NCBI GenBank assembly: GCA_964583105.1 | Contig: CAZOUV010000003.1 | Location: 14,946-78,945, forward strand | Length of the DNA stretch: 64,000 nucleotides | Source of the DNA: an uncultured Gammaproteobacteria bacterium | GTDB lineage: Bacteria; Patescibacteriota; Microgenomatia; UBA8517 | Direction: 5' to 3' | Shown: in pieces, positions 17,709 to 45,573 of the stretch | Layout: each line of letters opens with the position of its first letter | How positions within the stretch are numbered: the first letter of the stretch is position 1 | Position numbers and translations under genes: made by a program | The notes under the pieces: generated by a model | What the model was told of the DNA's origin: nothing | Seen by the model: the letters and a program-made list of their open reading frames with translations, nothing else | Databases searched by the model: none

Positions 17709-18662
17709 ATGATTAACGGTTTTAAATCTATTAGAGATGGATTTGGGGAAGCCTTGGTTGAGTTGGGAGAGAAAAACAAAAACATTGTCGTTCTTACAGC
17801 CGATCTAAAAGAATCAACAAGGGTTCATTTGTTTGCGGAAAAATTTCCCGAACGTTTTATCCAAGTTGGAGTTGCGGAGCAGGCTCTTGTTACGATTGCA
17901 TCCGGTATGGCAAAAGAAGGTAAAATTCCCTTTACCACAAGCTATGCCGCCTTTTCTCCCGGAAGAACACTTGATCAAATAAGAACAACGGTTGCATTAA
18001 ATAACCTCCCCGTAAAAATAGTTGGAGCACATGCGGGTCTGGGGGCCGGACCCTATGGTTCTACCCATCAGGCACTGGAAGACATTGCCATTATGAGAAC
18101 TGTTCCCAATATGGTCGTTGAAGTGCCTTGCGACTATGAGGAAGCAAAAAAGGCAACTTTTGAAATATCCAAAAACAAACTTCCTTCCTATTTAAGATTG
18201 GCAAGACAGGAATCTGGAATTGTTACCAAACCAAATTCTCCTTTTAAAATTGGACGGGCGGAGATTTTAAGAGATTTCAAAAATCCCCAAGCCACAATTA
18301 TTGCTTGCGGAACTTTGGTTTATGAAGCTTTGCTTGCGGCAGAAGAATTGGAGAAGAAGGGAATAGAGGTAATTGTAATTAATAATCGTACGATTAAACC
18401 CATGGATGAAAGAACAATAATAAGAGCGGCAAAAACTACGGGGGCGATTGTTACAGCAGAGGAACATCAGATAGACGGGGGAATGGGATCGGCAGTTTCG
18501 GAAATATTATCGAGAAATTTCCCTGTTCCCATTGAATTTATAGGAGTTCCGAACATTTTTGGAGAATCGGGAAAACCTAAGGAGCTTTTTAAAAAGTTCA
18601 AACTTACTTCAAAAGATATTGCTGAAGCCGTAAAAAGGGTTATTTCGCGCAAAAATTCTTGA
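17709..18662 (+). CDS. transketolase, C-terminal (pyrimidine-binding) subunit
   Basis: 'FIQVGVAEQALV', 'GSTHQALEDIAIMR' and 'VTAEEH'. Confidence 0.9.
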   Translation: MINGFKSIRDGFGEALVELGEKNKNIVVLTADLKESTRVHLFAEKFPERFIQVGVAEQALVTIASGMAKEGKIPFTTSYAAFSPGRTLDQIRTTVALNNLPVKIVGAHAGLGAGPYGSTHQALEDIAIMRTVPNMVVEVPCDYEEAKKATFEISKNKLPSYLRLARQESGIVTKPNSPFKIGRAEILRDFKNPQATIIACGTLVYEALLAAEELEKKGIEVIVINNRTIKPMDERTIIRAAKTTGAIVTAEEHQIDGGMGSAVSEILSRNFPVPIEFIGVPNIFGESGKPKELFKKFKLTSKDIAEAVKRVISRKNS

Positions 18663-39678: not shown

Positions 39679-39749
39679 GGATCCGTCGTTTAACGGCAAG
39701 ACGGGTCTCTTATAAAGACCAAACGATAGTTCGACTCTATCCGGATCCA
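39679..39749 (+). tRNA. tRNA-Ile (anticodon UAU)
   Basis: Acceptor GGATCCG/CGGATCC, U8, D stem GTTT/AGAC, anticodon stem GGTCT/AGACC with loop CTTATAA, T arm GATAG-TTCGACT-CTATC, discriminator A, no encoded CCA. TGcTATAAT lies at 39655-63 upstream. Confidence 0.85.
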
Positions 39750-39770
39750 CTCAAAAAAGTTTTATTTTGA

Positions 39771-40013
39771 TTACTTTTTAGTATTTAATTTTGATCCAGG
39801 AAGGTGTAGTTCCAATAAACCAAATACACCTCGAAAGGTCATCTCACCCTCAACCACTGGATTAATTGCTCGACCCGGAATTGGGAGAGTTACTACTCCA
39901 GCCACAAAACCCGCTATACCTATCGCAAGATTATCTCTTGTAAAGCCTAAAAAGTTCCGTGGTTTATTTTCAAGTAATTTTTCTCTTTCAGACACTTTAT
40001 ATTTATAATTCAA
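39771..40013 (-). CDS. hypothetical small protein (uncertain)
   Basis: 80-aa ORF with a hydrophobic 'LAIGIAGFVAGVVTLPIPG' segment. It overlaps the Xer stop by 11 nt. No homology recognised. Confidence 0.3.
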   Translation of the reverse strand: MNYKYKVSEREKLLENKPRNFLGFTRDNLAIGIAGFVAGVVTLPIPGRAINPVVEGEMTFRGVFGLLELHLPGSKLNTKK

Positions 40014-40866
40014 TTAGGACCTGCCTCTTTCCTGATTCAGTTACTCCTGCAAGTTCAAGGTAACGTTCTGTTGTTGAAAGCCTTCTGTGTCCCGAAACTT
40101 GTGAAAGAAGAACAAGATCAACACCTCCTTTGATGTTTTCAATCATGAATGTTGTTCTTAAATCATTTACTGAATAATTTGGGATTTCCGCTCTTTGCAT
40201 GTACCTGTCAATTGCTGCCCTTATGTTTCTTACGGCAATGGGTTTTCCGGACTTACTTATAAATACATATTCAGATTGAACTTTTGGTCTATTTGTAAGA
40301 TATAAATCAAGCGCGTCTTTGGCGGGTTTGTTTAAAGGAATTGTCCTTTCTGCTTGTGTTGCATATGCTTCTATTTTTACGGTTCCGTCCTTGACGTCTT
40401 CGGTTTTAAGATTGGCTACTTCCGAAATTCTTATTCCGGTTTGCAATATGAGTTCAACCATGGCTGCAATTCTGGTATCGCCCCTTACAACATCTCTCAA
40501 GGCTCTGTATTCCAGTTGTGACAGAAATTTGGGAAGAGAGCTTTCAACTTTTGGGTGAGAAACCGTATTTGAGGTATCACTTGTAAGGAGTCCCTCAGAA
40601 ACAAGCCATCTGAAAAATGTTTTAACGGCATTTAGTTTTCTTGAAACCGACTTAGGAGTATATTTTTGGGTCAAAAGGGTATCTCTAAAACTTTCCAAAT
40701 CAGATGAAACAACCTGGTCTATTAAAGGTTTGTTTTTGTTTAGAAGAAATGCAACTAATTGATCAAGATCTGCTCTATAGGCAATAACCGTTGAGGGAGA
40801 TCTTCCTTTTACCTTTAAACTCTCGATAAATTTCGGAACAAGGTTTTTAACCGTTTCTTGTGTCAT
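40003..40866 (-). CDS. tyrosine recombinase XerC/XerD-like
   Basis: 287 aa with an N-terminal SAM-like 'PSTVIAYRADLDQLVAFL', 'TGIRISE' and 'GHRRLSTTERY' (catalytic Tyr). Confidence 0.85.
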   Translation of the reverse strand: MTQETVKNLVPKFIESLKVKGRSPSTVIAYRADLDQLVAFLLNKNKPLIDQVVSSDLESFRDTLLTQKYTPKSVSRKLNAVKTFFRWLVSEGLLTSDTSNTVSHPKVESSLPKFLSQLEYRALRDVVRGDTRIAAMVELILQTGIRISEVANLKTEDVKDGTVKIEAYATQAERTIPLNKPAKDALDLYLTNRPKVQSEYVFISKSGKPIAVRNIRAAIDRYMQRAEIPNYSVNDLRTTFMIENIKGGVDLVLLSQVSGHRRLSTTERYLELAGVTESGKRQVLIEL

Positions 40867-40929: not shown

Positions 40930-41316
40930 ATGGGAGAAAAACTAAAACAAAAATTTGTAAAAGCAAGAATTTACTTACTCATTCTTTTTATCATTCTTTT
41001 TACCCTTTCCCTTTTTAGAAATATTTTGAAAATCAATCGTGCTAAAGAAAGAATTGAAAACGAAAAAGAAAAAGTTGTTGAGTTGGAGAGTCAGGGCAGA
41101 ATTCTGGAAGAGGAATTAAGAAAAATGCAAGGAAACAAATATTTAGAGGATCAATTAAGGGATAAACTGGGACTTGCCAAAGAAGGAGAAAGCATAGTTA
41201 TTTTGCCGGATCCGGAAATTCTTAAAAGTCTGGTTCCTAATATCCCCGATGAAAAAGATTACTTGCCCGATCCGACTTATGTAAAATGGCTAAAGTTGTT
41301 TGATATGAAAATATGA
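40930..41316 (+). CDS. septum formation initiator (FtsB/DivIC-like)
   Basis: TM followed by a coiled coil, with 'LEDQLRDKLGLAKEGESIVILP'. Confidence 0.65.
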   Translation: MGEKLKQKFVKARIYLLILFIILFTLSLFRNILKINRAKERIENEKEKVVELESQGRILEEELRKMQGNKYLEDQLRDKLGLAKEGESIVILPDPEILKSLVPNIPDEKDYLPDPTYVKWLKLFDMKI

Positions 41317-41600
41317 CATTTATTAAAAAGGAAGAAGATTTTGTCTGCAAAGTTTGCGGAACAAAAGTAAAAGGAACGGGATATACCAACCATTGTCCGA
41401 ATTGTCTTTGGAGTTTACATGTAGATGAAGTTATCCCGGGGGATAGACTATCTGAGTGTAAAGGACTTATGGAACCAATTAATGCGGAAATGAAAAACGG
41501 AGAATACATAATTATCCACAGATGCCAGAAATGTAAAAAAACAATTAAAAACAAGGCTTCGGAAAACGACAATATTGAAGAGATAATTAAACTTCTATAA
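41313..41600 (+). CDS. RNHCP domain zinc-ribbon protein
   Basis: 'CKVCGTKV..YTNHCPNCLWSLHVD' and 'CQKCKK'. Confidence 0.7.
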   Translation: MTFIKKEEDFVCKVCGTKVKGTGYTNHCPNCLWSLHVDEVIPGDRLSECKGLMEPINAEMKNGEYIIIHRCQKCKKTIKNKASENDNIEEIIKLL

Positions 41601-41608
41601 AACTTCTG

Positions 41609-41678
41609 TTGCGGAGCCAGGAGTTGAACCTGGCCTGCGAGATTATGAGCCTCGCGTGCAGCCGTACACTACCCCGCA
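41609..41678 (-). tRNA. tRNA with CAU anticodon (Met; initiator-like weak U1:A72 pair)
   Basis: Minus strand: UGCGGGG-UA-GUGU-ACGGCU-GCAC-G-CGAGG-CUCAUAA-UCUCG-CAGG-CCAGG-UUCAACU-CCUGG-CUCCGCA-A. No encoded CCA. Confidence 0.8.
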
Positions 41679-41749: not shown

Positions 41750-41821
41750 GCCAACGTAGCTCAGTGGTAGAGCGGAGCCCTCATAAAGCTTAGGCCGAAG
41801 GTTCAATCCCTTCCGTTGGCA
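41750..41821 (+). tRNA. tRNA with CAU anticodon (elongator Met or Ile2)
   Basis: GCCAACG-TA-GCTC-AGTGGTA-GAGC-G-GAGCC-CTCATAA-AGCTT-AGGCC-GAAGG-TTCAATC-CCTTC-CGTTGGC-A. There is a C31:A39 mismatch. Confidence 0.8.
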
Positions 41822-41868
41822 CTCTTCTAGTTTTTAGTTATTGACTTATTGGCATACATTGTATTACA

Positions 41869-42153: not shown

Positions 42154-42412
42154 ACCATTTAAATCTTTGAAAGAAGAAGCCAATTTTTGGGATACTCACG
42201 ATGTAAGTAAAGTATTTAAAAATCCAAAAATTTCTCTTTCCGAATTATTATCCCTTGAACCTAAAAAGGAAGTAATAATGACCTTAAGGGTTCAGAAAGT
42301 GGTTAAAGAAAAAATAGACAAAGTAGCAAAAATAAAAGGGATTAACCCCGCAACTCTTTCCAGAATGTGGCTTGTGGAAAGATTGACAAGGGAAGAAGGT
42401 TTGGTATACTAA
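42131..42412 (+). CDS. brnA: BrnA-like antitoxin, second copy
   Basis: 'KPFKSLKEEANFWDTHD' with a C-terminal RHH-like 'MTLRVQKVVKEKIDKVA'. It overlaps brnT. Confidence 0.7.
   Translation: MKRPKPIKPFKSLKEEANFWDTHDVSKVFKNPKISLSELLSLEPKKEVIMTLRVQKVVKEKIDKVAKIKGINPATLSRMWLVERLTREEGLVY
42383..42410 (+). promoter_or_regulatory. sigma70-like promoter for the T-box leader
   Basis: TTGACA(42383-88)-16 nt-TATACT(42405-10), embedded in the 3' end of brnA. Confidence 0.55.
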
Positions 42413-42417
42413 CGCTA

Positions 42418-42683
42418 GTTTTATAAATGCTTTGAGAAGATCGGTTGGGATCTTTGAATAGCTGGCAAAGCTACTCGAAAGAGATGTCGAGCCCAGAGGC
42501 GAAACTGTAAAAGTCAGCAACGAGTGTCGGAAACGGAGCTCGTCAAGAATAAGGTTTTCTTATCTTAACGATCTCGCTTTGGCGAGATTTTTGATTTAAG
42601 ACAACAAAAATAGGGTGGTACCCCCGAGAGGGCCCTTGTAAATTAACGATTTGTTTCGTTGGTTTGCAAGGGCTTTTTTGTTT
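42418..42683 (+). promoter_or_regulatory. T-box riboswitch leader (predicted Trp-specific, transcription-termination type)
   Basis: K-turn-like 'UUUGAGAAGAUC'; hairpin 42437-54 with loop GGUUGG; Stem III 42571-88; T-box 'AAAUAGGGUGGUACCCCCGAGAGGGCCCU' folding as AGGG[UGGUACC]CCC-GAGA-GGG-CCCU; and a competing terminator. Confidence 0.85.
42632..42683 (+). terminator. intrinsic terminator of the T-box leader
   Basis: An 18-bp stem (42632-49 pairs with 42656-73, including 4 G:U) with a 6-nt loop, followed by TTTTTTGTTT. Confidence 0.85.
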
Positions 42684-42755
42684 GGGAATGTAGCTCAAGG
42701 GCAGAGTATCCGTCTCCAAAACGGAAGATTGAGGGTTCAAGTCCCTCCATTCCCA
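42684..42755 (+). tRNA. tRNA-Trp (anticodon CCA)
   Basis: GGGAATG-TA-GCTC-AAGGGCA-GAGT-A-TCCGT-CTCCAAA-ACGGA-AGATT-GAGGG-TTCAAGT-CCCTC-CATTCCC-A. No encoded CCA. Confidence 0.95.
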
Positions 42756-42831
42756 CATATGGAAAGAATTAAATTTATAACACCGGCTATGTTAATTAGA
42801 AAGGAAACCTCGCAAGAGGGGTATCTCTGGC

Positions 42832-44238
42832 ATGACTATGTTTGGAATAAATATATTACTTAAACATATAAATAATAACTCTTTTATTGATAGGGAAGTT
42901 TCAGGTGCCCTAAAAAGAAGAGGGGAGAAAGAAATCTTTAATAGATTTTTGGTATCAGAACTTTCTTCGGGAGATAAAGTCATCGATTTTATGCTCAAAG
43001 AAGTTAAACAAAATACTAAAAACCTTTTAAAAGAAGGAATAATTATACCTGATCAGGTTTTACTTGATTTTACTATCTCAATTTTGAAGGCGGGTGGGAG
43101 TGAGAAACTGAATACCTACGACACAATTGTCAGGAAAATTATTGAACAAGAAAGCCCAAGATTTAAAAAACTTCACAACGATATAGATAAAGGCAGGTTT
43201 GACGGCAGATTACCCTTTGGGTATCCGGATGCAAGCAAAAGGGCGGCAGGGATGTTAACTGCCAAGATAAAAGATACTGCTCAAGATGTTAGAGAAGATT
43301 ATTTGGAGCAAAAATTTGTTGGAGATAAGATTAGAGAATTTTCCAAAGAAATGTTTTACGGAATTAATAAATTGGACCTATCGGGTAATGAACTGGTTAG
43401 ATATTTGAACATTCTCTATGGACTATCTCTTGTGCAAGTTGCACCTACGGAAAACCCCATACTTTTAAAAAGTAGAATATGTGAGGCCATAAGACAAAAA
43501 GAGCCAATTGATCTTGTGTATATAAAAAGCTTACGTTATTCCTATCCAGGGGGAAAAGGCATGAAATTAGTTAACCACCTTAATGAAGAAGAGACATTAA
43601 ATTTAGACGGGACAAAAAGGAAGTATTTCAGCGAGCATTTAATATTAGAAAGATTAGGTAAATTTGTTCAAATTTTTAATAATGCAGATGTAAAAGTTCA
43701 CTTAAATATAATAATTGCAGATAATGATCTTGATATTCTTTTCCCTATCGGTAGCGGTTTTGTGCCCGACAGCGATATTTATACAGCAAAAGAAGATATT
43801 AATTATTATCTGGAAAATTTTTGTCGTACCTGTGAGAATATGCACGCTGATGTTTATCTTTTAACAGATTTTATTAAACAAAAACATCTTGAGGGTAGTT
43901 ATACAAAGATGGTTAAATTTATTTATTCGGATGTTAAAAATCAAAGAAACATCATATCTGAAAGAGAAATCGAAGAAAGAGTAAATTTCAGATATGAATT
44001 TTTTGGACAGATCTATGGAAAAAAGTATTCAAGGGAATGTGCAAGAGAGGCAATGTATAACCAAATTGCAAATGTTATGGCCCTGTCAGAAGTTTTTAAT
44101 TCTTTTAAAAAACCTCCGGTTGTGGTGATTGATTACAGGGGACTGGAGAATAAAATGATTGGTGGACTAGAACCAAATTCCAGAAGCGTGTTCTTGACCA
44201 AACTTAAAGAGCCAACGATAATAGAGAAAGTGAAATGA
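42832..44238 (+). CDS. hypothetical cytoplasmic protein, function unknown
   Basis: 468-aa ORF with no TM segments and no motif I recognise. Its stop overlaps the trpS ATG (ATGA). Confidence 0.7.
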   Translation: MTMFGINILLKHINNNSFIDREVSGALKRRGEKEIFNRFLVSELSSGDKVIDFMLKEVKQNTKNLLKEGIIIPDQVLLDFTISILKAGGSEKLNTYDTIVRKIIEQESPRFKKLHNDIDKGRFDGRLPFGYPDASKRAAGMLTAKIKDTAQDVREDYLEQKFVGDKIREFSKEMFYGINKLDLSGNELVRYLNILYGLSLVQVAPTENPILLKSRICEAIRQKEPIDLVYIKSLRYSYPGGKGMKLVNHLNEEETLNLDGTKRKYFSEHLILERLGKFVQIFNNADVKVHLNIIIADNDLDILFPIGSGFVPDSDIYTAKEDINYYLENFCRTCENMHADVYLLTDFIKQKHLEGSYTKMVKFIYSDVKNQRNIISEREIEERVNFRYEFFGQIYGKKYSRECAREAMYNQIANVMALSEVFNSFKKPPVVVIDYRGLENKMIGGLEPNSRSVFLTKLKEPTIIEKVK

Positions 44239-45218
44239 AAAAAAGAGTATTTTCAGGTACAAGAGCAACCGGAAGGTTGCATTTGGGTAATTATCTTGGA
44301 GCCGTAAAAGGTTACCTTGAACTTCAGGATAATTCCAATTATGAAACCATTTATATGGTTATGGATTTGCATGCCATAACGACACCGTTTGACAAAGAAA
44401 AACTATCCAATAATACAAAAAACGTAATTATGGATTATCTGGCCTGTGGTCTTGATCCTGAAAAATCTATAATTACTGTTCAATCTTTGGTTCCGGAACA
44501 CACTTATTTGGCCCAAATTCTTTCCTCCGAAATAACGGTTGCCAGAATGCAGCACTTGCCTACATTTAAGGACAAGGTAAAACAATACCCCAAAAATGTT
44601 TCCATGGCCCTTCTTAATTATTCGGTTCTCATGGCTGCCGATATTCTTCTTTATAAGGCATCTTTGGTTCCCGTGGGGATTGATCAGGAACCGCATTTGG
44701 AAGTTGCCCGAGAAATTGCACGAAAAATGAACGAAAAATACGGTACGGATTTTCCTGAACCAACTAGGTTTTCAACAAAAGGAGAATATGTACCCTCATT
44801 GGTTGGAGAAGGCAAGATGAGTAAGGGCGTTGAGGGAAGCTATATAAACATTACCGATGACTTAGAAACCATCAAAAGTAGATTGGCACAGGCTCCAACC
44901 GATAGCGGGAAGGGAGATAAAATTCCCAAAGAAGGGGGAGTTGCAAACCTACTTACCTTTGTTGAGCTTTTTGAAGGAGAAGATAAAAGAAAGAAATATG
45001 AGAAAGATTATATTGGAAATGGTATTAGATACGGAGAATTAAAGGAAGAACTTGCGAAAGCCATATATAAAGAACTTAAGCCAATACAGGAAAAAAGAAA
45101 AGAATTTGAAAACAATCCTTTTTTAGTAGATGAAATAATTAAAGAAGGAGCCCAGAAAGCAAGTAGAATTGCTAAAGAAACCATTAAAGAAGTAAAAAAG
45201 AAAATTGGTCTTATTTAA
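44235..45218 (+). CDS. trpS: tryptophan--tRNA ligase
   Basis: 'GRLHLGNYLG' (HIGH) and 'KMSKG' (KMSKS); 327 aa. Confidence 0.95.
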   Translation: MKKRVFSGTRATGRLHLGNYLGAVKGYLELQDNSNYETIYMVMDLHAITTPFDKEKLSNNTKNVIMDYLACGLDPEKSIITVQSLVPEHTYLAQILSSEITVARMQHLPTFKDKVKQYPKNVSMALLNYSVLMAADILLYKASLVPVGIDQEPHLEVAREIARKMNEKYGTDFPEPTRFSTKGEYVPSLVGEGKMSKGVEGSYINITDDLETIKSRLAQAPTDSGKGDKIPKEGGVANLLTFVELFEGEDKRKKYEKDYIGNGIRYGELKEELAKAIYKELKPIQEKRKEFENNPFLVDEIIKEGAQKASRIAKETIKEVKKKIGLI

Positions 45219-45219
45219 T

Positions 45220-45573
45220 ATGGATACTATTTCATTTGACGATTTTCAAAAGGTTGATATAAGGGTTGGAACCGTTATTAAGGCGGAAGTTCCTTCTTGG
45301 AGCCATTGGGTGATGAAAATTACTGCCGATTTGGGTCCCGAAATTGGCGAAAAAGTTTGTTTTTCAGGAATAATGAAGTTTTTTAAGCCCGTTAGTTTTG
45401 TAGGTAAACAGTTTCCTTTTGTTGTTAATTTAGAGCCTAAAAAGATTGGACCGGAGAAGGATTTTTCTGAGGTTATGATGATTATGGCCTGCCCCGGAGG
45501 AGATGACAACGACATTGCTCCTGTTTTATTTAAACTTCAGAAAAAGGTTCCAAATGGAACAAAAGTCTTTTAG
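45220..45573 (+). CDS. tRNA-binding domain protein (CsaA/Trbp111-like OB fold)
   Basis: 'FDDFQKVDIRVGTVIKAE' and 'VVNLEPKKIGP'. ATG 45220 lies 1 nt after the trpS stop. Confidence 0.8.
   Translation: MDTISFDDFQKVDIRVGTVIKAEVPSWSHWVMKITADLGPEIGEKVCFSGIMKFFKPVSFVGKQFPFVVNLEPKKIGPEKDFSEVMMIMACPGGDDNDIAPVLFKLQKKVPNGTKVF

What the first reader, a model, noticed from the sequence alone, without database searches (positions are those of the whole stretch)
42832..44238. Unknown 468-aa protein wedged between tRNA-Trp and trpS and translationally coupled to trpS
The ORF is long, uninterrupted and soluble-looking. It carries none of the motifs I checked by eye: no HIGH/KMSKS, no PP-loop SGGxDS (TilS-like), no GGxVRD/DxD CCA-adding motif, no P-loop and no TM segments. 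Its stop overlaps the trpS start (ATGA) and it sits downstream of the T-box terminator and tRNA-Trp. Its expression is therefore predicted to depend on tRNA-Trp charging status. There is a precedent that T-box(Trp) units can carry non-aaRS regulators: the Bacillus subtilis rtpA-ycbK (anti-TRAP) operon. A tRNA-Trp- or Trp-related function (tRNA modification or handling, TrpRS partner, regulator) is a reasonable but untested hypothesis.
Basis: inference. Interest (0 to 1): 0.65.

Follow-up and report, generated by a model that had tools for sequence, protein, structure and literature searches.

The report
Tryptophan-free synthetase-like enzyme beside trpS
The 468-residue ORF is real and founds an unannotated protein family with a tRNA-synthetase-like fold that contains no tryptophan at all, always sits between the tRNA-Trp gene and the tryptophanyl-tRNA synthetase gene, and appears to be switched on, possibly through a ribosomal frameshift at a tryptophan codon, when charged tRNA-Trp runs short.

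Summary
In detail: ORF 42832-44238 (468 aa), its TGA overlapping the trpS ATG, lies downstream of tRNA-Trp and a divergent T-box(Trp) leader.

The family is rare and confined to Microgenomates-type Patescibacteria. In about 25 distinct loci, down to 24% identity, the order tRNA-Trp -> small ORF -> this gene -> trpS is kept.

Two new findings:
- All 55 full-length members contain zero Trp in 25,265 residues (165-270 expected).
- The small ORF starting right after the tRNA carries a UGG in a prfB-like context (SD-like, 2-4 nt, GUU UGG C) leading +1 into the big ORF. Five loci have no start codon for the big ORF.

Best reading: a Trp-limitation-induced enzyme acting on Trp or Trp-tRNATrp. Its chemistry is unresolved. 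This is a new branch of a known superfamily with a possibly unprecedented hungry-codon frameshift sensor.

The parts
42383..42410 (+). Promoter-like site TTGACA-16-TATACT (TG-extended) upstream of the leader
   Evidence: 11 of 12 matches. No other promoter-like site lies between it and tRNA-Trp.
42423..42639 (+). Divergent T-box(Trp) leader. It has a short specifier hairpin at 42437-42454 with UGG at 42446-42448 in the loop, and the T-box bulge AGGGTGGTACC at 42612-42622.
   Evidence: Rfam RF00230 gives a full-length but sub-threshold hit (21 bits). Orthologous leaders score 37.6 and 35.3 bits. The 13-locus alignment A6 shows invariant GGTGG.A, the terminator, and a covarying hairpin with a conserved UGG-purine loop.
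42629..42682 (+). Intrinsic terminator of the T-box (20-bp stem plus T-run), ending just before the tRNA
   Evidence: It is conserved as GCCCTTG...CAAGGGCTTTTTT in all loci.
42684..42756 (+). tRNA-Trp (CCA anticodon; G1-C72, A73; CCA not encoded)
   Evidence: ARAGORN; Rfam 71.6 bits; ends analysed.
42759..42863 (+). Small ORF, 34 codons (MERIKFITPAMLIRKETSQEGYLWHDYVWNKYIT*). It starts 3 nt after the tRNA discriminator, has no SD, and overlaps the start of the big ORF in the -1 register, so the big ORF is its +1 frame.
   Evidence: An equivalent ORF is present in all 24 loci examined, and its frame is stop-free across the whole spacer in 11 of the 13 loci tested, while the other two frames always contain stops. 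The peptide is conserved with synonymous codon variation.
42816..42831 (+). Candidate +1 frameshift / Trp-sensing site: SD-like GAGGGG (42816-42821), UAU, CUC (42825-42827), UGG (42828-42830), C (42831)
   Evidence: Anchored profile of 24 loci: an SD-like element 2-4 nt upstream in 23 of 24; codon before UGG is GUU 19, CUU 2, CUC 2, CCC 1; UGG 24 of 24; next base C 21, U 3. This stretch is more conserved than the following start codon. L040 reads GGGG UAU CUU UGG C, against the E. coli prfB site GGGGG UAU CUU UGA C.
42832..44238 (+). The 468-aa ORF (family 'X'): the finding itself
42832..43497 (+). N-terminal all-helical domain (residues 1-222), including the conserved loop LPFGYPDASK..G.L.AKIKD (about residues 127-148)
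43498..44235 (+). C-terminal class-Ic aaRS-like Rossmann domain (residues 223-468)
43525..43548 (+). Signature motif K232-S233-L-R235-Y-S-Y238-P239, directly after Rossmann strand beta1
   Evidence: K232, R235 and Y238 are invariant in 53 sequences. Residue 233 is Cys in 38 and Ser in 15, and nothing else. The strand position comes from DSSP of the model.
43720..43728 (+). D297-N-D299 at the C-terminal end of the next parallel strand
   Evidence: Both Asp are 96% conserved; DSSP.
44140..44151 (+). G437-L-E439-N440 after the fourth strand; possible counterpart of the class-Ic GxDQ motif
   Evidence: Conservation G 89%, E 79%, N 77%. The equivalence to GxDQ (window TrpRS VPVGIDQ) is inferred from topology only.
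44235..45218 (+). trpS: bacterial-type TrpRS, 327 aa, also Trp-free

Best explanation
The ORF encodes a member of a previously unannotated, rare protein family of Microgenomates-type Patescibacteria.

Architecture. The protein has a novel N-terminal helical domain of about 220 aa. Its C-terminal domain of about 245 aa is a Rossmann domain of the class-Ic aminoacyl-tRNA-synthetase type. The same fold branch holds TrpRS/TyrRS, cyclodipeptide synthases and PvcA/IsnA isonitrile synthases. It has lost the ATP motifs HIGH and KMSKS. At the same active-site crest it carries its own invariant polar constellation: K232-[Cys/Ser]233-L-R235-x-x-Y238-P, E268, D297-x-D299, Y326, E381, R405. It is therefore an enzyme or specific ligand binder, not a relic.

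Context. The gene is locked into a module: promoter -> T-box(Trp) -> tRNA-Trp -> small ORF -> X -> trpS.

Proposed working:
(1) When charged tRNA-Trp falls, the T-box reads through.
(2) Ribosomes translating the small ORF reach a UGG placed in a prfB/Ty1-like context (SD-like element, short spacer, GUU/CUU/CUC, UGG, C). With the A site starved they shift +1 into X. This adds to ordinary initiation at the AUG at 42832.
(3) X and TrpRS contain no Trp, so they can be completed without Trp-tRNA.
(4) X binds Trp, or the aminoacylated 3' end of tRNA-Trp, in its class-Ic pocket. It uses Cys/Ser233 for covalent (acyl-enzyme) chemistry that supports the supply or fidelity of Trp-tRNATrp during Trp limitation.

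Status of each step. Shown: the fold, the conserved site, the linkage, the leader anatomy and the Trp-free composition. Inferred: the frameshift (my estimate about 0.55), the substrate (Trp or tRNA-Trp, about 0.8) and the acyl-enzyme chemistry on aminoacyl-tRNA (about 0.3).

For: Active-site-like conservation. Residue 233 is Cys or Ser only. In AlbC the nucleophile Ser37 sits in the loop after the first Rossmann strand, and the S37C variant still forms the covalent intermediate.

Linkage: tRNA-Trp within 1 kb upstream in 24 of 26 judgeable loci, and trpS downstream on the same strand in all but L028. This holds where the flanking synteny is lost and across three TrpRS types only 33-40% identical to each other. 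It holds even for the remote relative P0074.

Regulation: promoter and terminator; T-box features.

Small ORF.

Frameshift-like site. Five loci (L026, L027, L028, L037, L041) have an intact big ORF whose conserved N-terminal FG motif lies upstream of any canonical start codon. Close relatives carry ATG at the same position.

Trp-free: 0 W in 25,265 residues of 55 members, against 0.65-1.08% background. Remote relatives outside the tRNA-Trp context have 6-10 W each. Only 3 of 27 window ORFs of at least 300 aa are W-free, and two of them are X and TrpRS.
Against: No sequence-level link exists to any aaRS, CDPS or PvcA family, so residue equivalences rest on topology, not on a superposition. Most loci (15 of 24, including the window) have an ATG or GTG immediately after the UGG-C at ideal SD spacing, so ordinary initiation may suffice. 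The window's codon before UGG is CUC, which re-pairs poorly in the +1 frame. No in-frame fusion of the small and big ORFs was found. The T-box bulge does not covary cleanly with the discriminator base. The family co-occurs with TrpRS already fused to editing domains, which weakens a simple 'editing factor' reading. An enzyme that consumes Trp-tRNA would make little sense under Trp limitation, so the direction of the chemistry is uncertain. No experimental data of any kind exist.
Confidence: 0.5

Rival explanations
1. The small ORF is a conventional Trp-codon leader peptide (as for B. subtilis anti-TRAP, or trp attenuation) and no frameshift occurs. The big ORF is always initiated at its own AUG/GUG, and the conserved GGAGG is just its Shine-Dalgarno.
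For: ATG or GTG follows UGG-C directly in 15 of 24 loci, and a start codon lies within 2-4 codons in four more. SD-to-AUG spacing of about 9 nt is ideal. The T-box plus leader-peptide combination is an established way of sensing uncharged tRNA-Trp (PMC4027176). The window's CUC is a poor slippery codon.
Against: Five independent loci have no start codon before the conserved N-terminal motif, yet their ORFs are intact. GUU-UGG-C is more conserved than the start codon. The SD-like element is retained where no AUG exists. Geometry is also a problem. A ribosome stalled with UGG in its A site covers both the SD and the AUG 1 nt downstream. Starvation would then block the gene, which is opposite to the T-box logic and to the Trp-free design.
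Confidence: 0.35
2. It is a cyclodipeptide-synthase-like secondary-metabolite enzyme that consumes Trp-tRNATrp, for example to make cyclo(Trp-X).
Against: There is no Pfam CDPS match in 45 members and relatives. The protein is twice the size, with an extra domain. No tailoring genes are nearby. The gene is embedded in a housekeeping operon that is induced when charged tRNA-Trp is LOW, and the protein is strictly Trp-free. That is the wrong logic for an enzyme that drains Trp-tRNA.
Confidence: 0.1
3. It is a PvcA/IsnA-like enzyme acting on free tryptophan with a phosphorylated co-substrate, modifying or salvaging Trp rather than touching tRNA.
Against: No DIT1_PvcA Pfam match appears even at E<=10. 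No PvcB/IsnB-type oxygenase partner is present in any locus. The invariable adjacency to the tRNA-Trp gene itself is not explained.
Confidence: 0.15
4. It is a catalytically inert TrpRS-derived paralogue that acts as a partner, chaperone or regulator of TrpRS or tRNA-Trp (a pseudo-synthetase).
For: It is tandem to trpS, has the same fold class, and has lost HIGH and KMSKS. It is co-regulated with trpS.
Against: A set of invariant charged and nucleophilic residues sits at the strand ends, which is typical of catalysis. The family co-occurs with three TrpRS types only 33-40% identical to each other, with or without fused editing domains. That argues against a specific TrpRS-binding surface. hhalign finds no residual similarity to TrpRS.
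Confidence: 0.15
5. The linkage is only inherited gene order in one lineage and says nothing about function.
For: XerC, DivIC, tRNA_bind and FtsH synteny is also conserved among the closer genomes.
Against: The tRNA-Trp / X / trpS triad persists where all other synteny is gone (L009, L011-L013, L015, L042) and across replacement of the TrpRS type. The Trp-free composition and the UGG leader tie the gene to Trp independently of gene order.
Confidence: 0.04

Closest known systems
Cyclodipeptide synthases (AlbC, Rv2275, and others)
   Different: No sequence or Pfam similarity. An extra 220-aa N-terminal domain. A different conserved residue set (K, R, Y, DxD, E, R instead of G-x-S, Y178, E182, Y202). 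A housekeeping, starvation-induced context instead of biosynthetic clusters. Trp-free composition.
PvcA / IsnA / Dit1 isonitrile synthases
   Different: No Pfam DIT1_PvcA match, no oxygenase partner gene, and linkage to tRNA-Trp and trpS.
Class-Ic aminoacyl-tRNA synthetases (TrpRS, TyrRS)
   Different: No HIGH, no KMSKS and no anticodon-binding domain. No detectable sequence homology (hhalign probability 0.1%).
prfB (RF2) autoregulatory +1 programmed frameshift; yeast Ty1 CUU_AGG_C hungry-codon shift
   Same: An SD-like element lies 2-4 nt upstream of a shifty codon ending in U (or CCC), followed by a slow-to-decode codon beginning with U and then a C. L040 differs from the E. coli prfB site by one base. 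As in Ty1, the +1 codon is GGC. The sensed component is made by the same operon (RF2 there; Trp-tRNATrp via TrpRS and tRNA-Trp here).
   Different: The slow codon is a sense codon (UGG), not a stop. The usual preceding codon is GUU, not CUU. Most loci also keep a start codon for the downstream frame. The 0-frame product is a separate small ORF that begins right after a tRNA gene. Untested experimentally.
B. subtilis anti-TRAP (rtpA) operon
   Same: A non-aaRS protein under a T-box(Trp), plus a Trp-codon leader peptide, giving tandem transcriptional and translational sensing of uncharged tRNA-Trp (PMC4027176).
   Different: Unrelated protein (a small zinc protein versus an aaRS-like enzyme). 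Here the leader's UGG abuts the start codon, so the rtpLP-type 'expose the SD by stalling upstream' geometry does not apply. A tRNA gene lies inside the regulated transcript.

Membership tests
Class-Ic aaRS (TrpRS/TyrRS; Pfam tRNA-synt_1b) | Rossmann catalytic-domain fold | tested here: met
Class-Ic aaRS (TrpRS/TyrRS; Pfam tRNA-synt_1b) | HIGH and KMSKS ATP-binding signatures | tested here: not met
   No match by regex. The positions after beta1 and beta5 carry K[CS]LR and TKL instead.
Class-Ic aaRS (TrpRS/TyrRS; Pfam tRNA-synt_1b) | Profile match to PF00579 / detectable homology to TrpRS | tested here: not met
   No Pfam hit at E<=10 in 15 members. hhalign against the neighbouring TrpRS family gives probability 0.1%.
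Class-Ic aaRS (TrpRS/TyrRS; Pfam tRNA-synt_1b) | C-terminal helical anticodon-binding domain | tested here: not met
   The protein ends right after the fifth strand. The N-terminal helical domain resembles no anticodon-binding domain.
Cyclodipeptide synthase | Fold: class-Ic-like Rossmann domain lacking the ATP motifs | tested here: met
Cyclodipeptide synthase | Profile match to the CDPS family | tested here: not met
   No CDPS Pfam hit in 15 members or 30 distant relatives.
Cyclodipeptide synthase | Catalytic Ser after the first Rossmann strand, plus the Tyr/Glu pair lining the pocket | tested here: inconclusive
   Cys/Ser233 is strictly conserved right after beta1, and Y238, Y326 and E381 are conserved. 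No coordinate superposition could be made, so the equivalence to S37, Y178 and E182 is unverified.
Cyclodipeptide synthase | Uses aminoacyl-tRNA and forms a covalent aminoacyl-enzyme | not testable with these tools
   Needs biochemistry.
DIT1_PvcA / IsnA isonitrile synthase | Profile match to PF05141 | tested here: not met
   No hit at E<=10.
DIT1_PvcA / IsnA isonitrile synthase | Fold | tested here: met
DIT1_PvcA / IsnA isonitrile synthase | Adjacent Fe/2OG oxygenase partner (PvcB/IsnB) | tested here: not met
   None in any annotated neighbourhood.
T-box leader (RF00230) | Reaches the Rfam gathering score | tested here: not met
   21, 35.3 and 37.6 bits against a gathering score of 93.
T-box leader (RF00230) | T-box bulge (GGUGGNACC) in an antiterminator that competes with an intrinsic terminator | tested here: met
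   Invariant in 13 leaders; terminator.
T-box leader (RF00230) | Specifier codon matching the regulated amino acid | tested here: met
   A conserved UGG-purine sits in the loop of a covarying short hairpin near the 5' end in all 11 leaders whose aligned sequence reaches that region. Its assignment as the specifier is inferred.
T-box leader (RF00230) | Bulge base covaries with the tRNA discriminator | tested here: inconclusive
   UGGU pairs with A73 in 7 loci, and UGGC with G73 in L002. But UGGC faces A73 in 5 loci, and UGGU faces G73 in L008.
prfB-type +1 programmed frameshift | Internal SD-like element a few nt upstream of the shift codon | tested here: met
   Found 2-4 nt upstream in 23 of 24 loci, and 3 nt upstream in the window. 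prfB has 3 nt.
prfB-type +1 programmed frameshift | Slippery P-site codon that re-pairs in the +1 frame | tested here: inconclusive
   GUU 19, CUU 2, CCC 1, CUC 2. CUU and CCC are classic shifty codons. GUU is plausible. CUC, as in the window, is poor.
prfB-type +1 programmed frameshift | Slow-to-decode A-site codon followed by C | tested here: met
   UGG in 24 of 24 loci, followed by C in 21 and U in 3. UGG is slow only when Trp-tRNA is limiting, which is an inference.
prfB-type +1 programmed frameshift | The downstream frame cannot be expressed without the shift | tested here: inconclusive
   True in 5 of 24 loci (L026, L027, L028, L037, L041). Not true in the window, which has an AUG at 42832.
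prfB-type +1 programmed frameshift | Trans-frame product observed | not testable with these tools
   Needs a reporter assay or proteomics.

The most novel reading that the evidence does not exclude
The module is a natural 'hungry-codon' +1 programmed frameshift. Shortage of Trp-tRNATrp is read directly by the ribosome at a UGG codon in a leader ORF that begins at the 3' end of the tRNA-Trp gene. The shift diverts the ribosome into a strictly Trp-free, aaRS-derived enzyme of a new family, and onward to TrpRS. That enzyme performs a so far undescribed reaction on Trp or tRNA-Trp that rescues the supply or fidelity of Trp-tRNATrp in amino-acid-scavenging Patescibacteria. This would be the first natural sense-codon frameshift sensor of aminoacyl-tRNA supply. 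The 2016 recoding review states that no examples are known (PMC5009743). It would also be a fourth functional branch of the class-Ic aaRS-like superfamily.
Probability: 0.4. Interest if true: 0.9.

Novelty: new variant of a known kind. Interest (0 to 1): 0.8.

Why it matters
The class-Ic aaRS fold has so far given rise to three functional branches: the synthetases, the cyclodipeptide synthases and the isonitrile synthases. A fourth branch hard-wired to tRNA-Trp and TrpRS would extend the list of aaRS-derived enzymes. It would also point to an unknown step in tryptophan or tRNA-Trp handling in Patescibacteria, organisms that cannot make amino acids.

The complete absence of Trp from a 460-residue family is one of the cleanest examples of 'starvation-proof' protein composition.

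If the UGG site is a real frameshift sensor, it gives a directly testable natural case of aminoacyl-tRNA-sensing recoding. That idea has been discussed for decades without a natural example. It would also give a compact genetic part that reports Trp-tRNA charging.

Tried and rejected
- **Sequence libraries.** Pfam, NCBIfam, PADLOC and PDB searches by sequence, with single sequences and with profiles, found nothing significant. A weak RGS-like hit to the N-domain (E=0.07-0.15) was treated as chance.
- **Distant relatives.** A Pfam scan of 40 distant relatives found no bridging family.
- **hhalign.** Comparison of the family with the neighbouring TrpRS family gave probability 0.1%.
- **afdb50 fold search.** The library was unavailable.
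- **Spacer hairpin.** A hairpin in the tRNA-to-ORF spacer as the conserved feature was rejected: no compensatory pairs, and MFE z-score 0.05.
- **T-box covariation.** Bulge/discriminator covariation as a clean proof of the T-box was not clean.
- **Second Trp codon.** The second Trp codon of the small ORF is not an independent sensor. It is explained as a by-product of the big ORF's conserved F4-G5 (TTTGG), since FG is kept where the small ORF ends earlier.
- **In-frame fusions.** A search for small ORF + big ORF in-frame fusions among the called proteins found none.
- **prfB in the window.** No prfB-like CTTTGA site is present in the window for comparison.
- **Literature.** Searches found no description of this family, of TrpRS editing fusions, or of a Trp-codon frameshift sensor.
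Full report
**1. Observation.** The ORF 42832..44238 (+) is there, with an ATG start and 468 codons. Its TGA overlaps the ATG of the next ORF. That next ORF is a bacterial-type TrpRS (Pfam tRNA-synt_1b E=4e-58; E=3e-63 to solved bacterial TrpRS). tRNA-Trp(CCA) lies at 42684-42756. The protein has no HIGH, KMSKS, P-loop or PP-loop and no hydrophobic segment.

**2. No sequence family.**
- Pfam, NCBIfam, PADLOC and PDB sequences give nothing significant, for the protein, for a profile of 15 homologues, or for each homologue alone.
- The family is rare. There are 15 clusters in the 5.8-billion-protein word search. The exhaustive profile search of 1.84 billion representatives finds 97 clusters at E<=1e-3, 57 of them at E<=1e-30.
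- No source gives these proteins a name.
- Genome hits are MAGs of Woesebacteria, Shapirobacteria, Amesbacteria and unclassified Patescibacteria.

**3. Fold.**
- With the 15-sequence alignment, AlphaFold2 gives a confident model (pLDDT 87.2, pTM 0.82). Residues about 17-222 are all-helical. Residues 223-468 form a five-stranded parallel alpha/beta domain.
- The C-terminal domain is therefore a class-Ic aaRS-type catalytic domain, about equally distant from the three known branches.
- The relationship is invisible at sequence level. hhalign of a 53-member alignment against the neighbouring TrpRS family gives probability 0.1%.

**4. A conserved, enzyme-like site.**
- In 53 members, down to 21% identity, K232, R235 and Y238 are invariant. 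E268, D297, D299, Y326, E381 and R405 are at least 96% conserved.
- Residue 233 is Cys in 38 and Ser in 15, and never anything else.
- K-[C/S]-L-R-x-x-Y-P follows the first Rossmann strand directly. DxD follows the next strand, and G-x-E-N follows the fourth. These are the strand ends where class-I enzymes bind substrates.
- The Cys/Ser-only position recalls the CDPS nucleophile Ser37, whose S37C variant still forms the acyl-enzyme.
- That equivalence, and GxEN = GxDQ, are inferred from topology. No superposition was possible with these tools.

**5. Linkage.**
- I collected 27 distinct family loci (tally).
- tRNA-Trp lies within 1 kb upstream in 24 of 26 judgeable loci, usually 70-140 nt away. 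The exceptions are L010 and the fragmentary L039.
- trpS follows on the same strand in every locus with enough sequence except L028. There a convergent distant paralogue takes its place (hhalign 97.8%).
- The triad survives where XerC, DivIC and FtsH synteny is lost.
- It also survives replacement of TrpRS by forms only 33-40% identical, some fused to YbaK-like or B3_4 editing domains.
- Even the remote relative P0074 has tRNA-Trp directly upstream and an editing-domain TrpRS divergently next to it.
- The most remote relatives (P0068, P0091) sit instead with SAM methyltransferases.
- The constant partners are tRNA-Trp and Trp, not one particular TrpRS.

**6. Transcription control.**
- A near-consensus promoter (42383-42410) precedes a conserved leader. 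The leader ends in a 20-bp terminator (42629-42676) 8 nt before the tRNA, with no promoter in between.
- Rfam's T-box model matches the leader end to end but below threshold: 21 bits here, and 37.6 and 35.3 bits in L009 and L016.
- The 13-locus alignment shows the invariant GGUGG.A bulge and the terminator. It also shows a short 5' hairpin with covarying stem and a conserved UGG-purine loop.
- I read this as a T-box(Trp) with an ultrashort Stem I. Discriminator covariation is imperfect.
- Unusually, the tRNA-Trp gene itself lies downstream of the T-box terminator.

**7. The small ORF.**
- One to four nucleotides after the tRNA, a 23-40-codon ORF begins without an SD. In L005 the gap is 21 nt.
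- Its frame is stop-free over the whole spacer in 11 of the 13 loci tested, while both other frames always have stops. Per-locus shuffle P is 0.007-0.03.
- Its peptide (M.ER.I[ST]...L[VI]...RKE.VW) is conserved with synonymous codon changes.
- In L002 the T-box lies between the tRNA and the small ORF, and there the ORF has its own strong SD.
- A proposed spacer hairpin has no covariation support.

**8. A frameshift-like site.** Anchoring 24 loci on the small ORF's first UGG gives the following profile:

| Element | Count |
|---|---|
| SD-like element (GGAGG, GGGG or GGUGA) 2-4 nt upstream of the preceding codon | 23 of 24 loci |
| Codon preceding UGG | GUU 19, CUU 2, CUC 2, CCC 1 |
| UGG | 24 of 24 |
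| Base after UGG | C 21, U 3 |

- The big ORF is in the +1 frame, so a shift reads GGY and then the big ORF.
- These positions carry more information than the start codon that follows.
- The start codon is present directly after the site in only 15 loci. In three more an ATG follows within 2-4 codons, and in L002 a GTG lies three codons upstream.
- In L026, L027, L028, L037 and L041 there is no canonical start between the upstream stop and the conserved FG motif, although the ORFs are intact.
- Close relatives have ATG at that very position.
- L040 reads GGGG UAU CUU UGG C, one base from the E. coli prfB site. The window reads GAGGGG UAU CUC UGG C AUG.
- The prfB motif is an SD-like element, 3 nt, CTTT, then a stop followed by C (PMC12421855). 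Ty1 uses CUU_AGG_C with a hungry AGG and +1 codon GGC (PMC5009743).
- The same review says of hungry-codon frameshifting that yields functional trans-frame proteins that "no examples are known".

**9. Trp-free composition.**
- All 55 full-length members contain zero Trp in 25,265 residues. Background is 1.08% in the window's long ORFs and 0.65% in the loci, so 165-270 would be expected.
- The window TrpRS is also Trp-free. Only 3 of the 27 window ORFs of at least 300 aa are Trp-free, and the third is a transketolase subunit.
- Remote relatives outside the tRNA-Trp context have 6-10 Trp each.
- The family has therefore been kept free of UGG codons, as expected for a protein that must be finished when Trp-tRNA is scarce.

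**10. Synthesis.**
- Shown: the new family, the fold, the conserved site, the linkage, the T-box-like leader, the UGG-bearing small ORF and the Trp-free composition.
- Inferred: low Trp-tRNATrp gives T-box read-through. Ribosomes on the small ORF then starve at UGG and shift +1 into the big ORF. In the window this also feeds the overlapping trpS start.
- This is more coherent than an rtpLP-type occlusion model. A ribosome stalled at this UGG would cover the SD and the AUG, and so silence the gene exactly when the T-box and the composition say it is needed.
- Ordinary initiation at AUG 42832 probably coexists with the shift.
- The enzyme's reaction is unknown. My best guess is covalent catalysis by Cys/Ser233 on the tryptophanyl, or a mis-acylated, 3' end of tRNA-Trp, in aid of supply or fidelity.
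- This guess fits the fold, the nucleophile-like residue, and the evident pressure for editing in this clade, shown by the TrpRS-editing fusions. TrpRS mischarging under Trp depletion is known in human cells (PMC8942854, abstract seen).
- I put it at only about 0.3.

**11. Rivals and comparison.**
- A CDPS-type consumer of Trp-tRNA fits the fold but not the regulation.
- A PvcA-like enzyme on free Trp fits the best structural hit but not the tRNA linkage or the missing partner gene.
- An inert pseudo-TrpRS does not fit the invariant polar site or the co-occurrence with three TrpRS types.
- Membership in the aaRS, CDPS and PvcA families fails at sequence level while the fold criterion is met.
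- The protein is best filed as a new branch of the class-Ic aaRS-like superfamily.
- The regulatory design is closest to the B. subtilis anti-TRAP operon (T-box plus Trp leader peptide; PMC4027176) and, for the site itself, to prfB and Ty1.

**12. Verdict.** The finding is more interesting than first thought. The protein's chemistry and the frameshift both still need experiments.

Noticed in passing
L004 2324-4042; L005 2094-3593; L008 4245-5690; L010 4801-6258; L018 3-809 (-): TrpRS in sister lineages is fused at its N-terminus to editing-type domains: B3_4 in L004, and YbaK-like tRNA_edit in L005, L008, L010 and L018. TrpRS is not normally an editing synthetase. I found no literature on this.
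   Followed up: partly
window 44235-45218 versus L001 7377-8381 and L009 5403-6407: Three TrpRS types only 33-40% identical occupy the same slot downstream of the family gene in otherwise syntenic genomes (FtsH about 70% identical). This suggests in-situ replacement of trpS.
   Followed up: partly
window 42684-42756 and the orthologous tRNAs: tRNA-Trp has G1-C72 and discriminator A73, an archaeal/eukaryal-like identity set from my own knowledge, although the TrpRS is bacterial-type. L002 instead has A1-U72, G73 and an encoded CCA. The tRNA gene also lies downstream of a T-box terminator, an unusual placement.
   Followed up: partly
window 42423-42639 and alignment A6: The T-box leader appears to have an ultrashort Stem I with the UGG specifier in a hairpin loop. 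This explains why Rfam misses it, and such Patescibacterial T-boxes may be systematically under-annotated.
   Followed up: partly
L008 2159-2334 (+); L002 4718-4926 (-): Group I introns (Rfam 81.5 and 66.8 bits) lie in the tRNA-rich region upstream of the module. The host gene was not identified.
   Followed up: no
L028 2485-4152 (-): A 555-aa distant paralogue of the family (hhalign 97.8%) lies convergent to the family gene in the one locus that lacks trpS downstream. Its signature motif is altered (MLCCINQFDY).
   Followed up: partly
L019 360-4104; L021 1377-5809: The remotest relatives (622-839 aa, normal Trp content) head operons with SAM methyltransferases, one fused to NUDIX, and an alpha/beta hydrolase. 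This suggests a small-molecule pathway for the wider superfamily.
   Followed up: no
window 39679-39750; 41608-41678 (-); 41750-41822: tRNA-Ile(UAU) and two tRNA-Met(CAU) genes cluster just upstream. An RNHCP-domain zinc-ribbon protein (41313-41600) and a XerC-like recombinase (40003-40866, -) are conserved neighbours.
   Followed up: no
window 45205-45573: A Trbp111/CsaA-like tRNA_bind protein (122 aa) follows trpS and overlaps its end. Unlike X and TrpRS, it contains two Trp.
   Followed up: no
window 17709-18659: The only other Trp-free ORF of at least 300 aa in the window is a transketolase C-terminal subunit. This is probably chance.
   Followed up: yes
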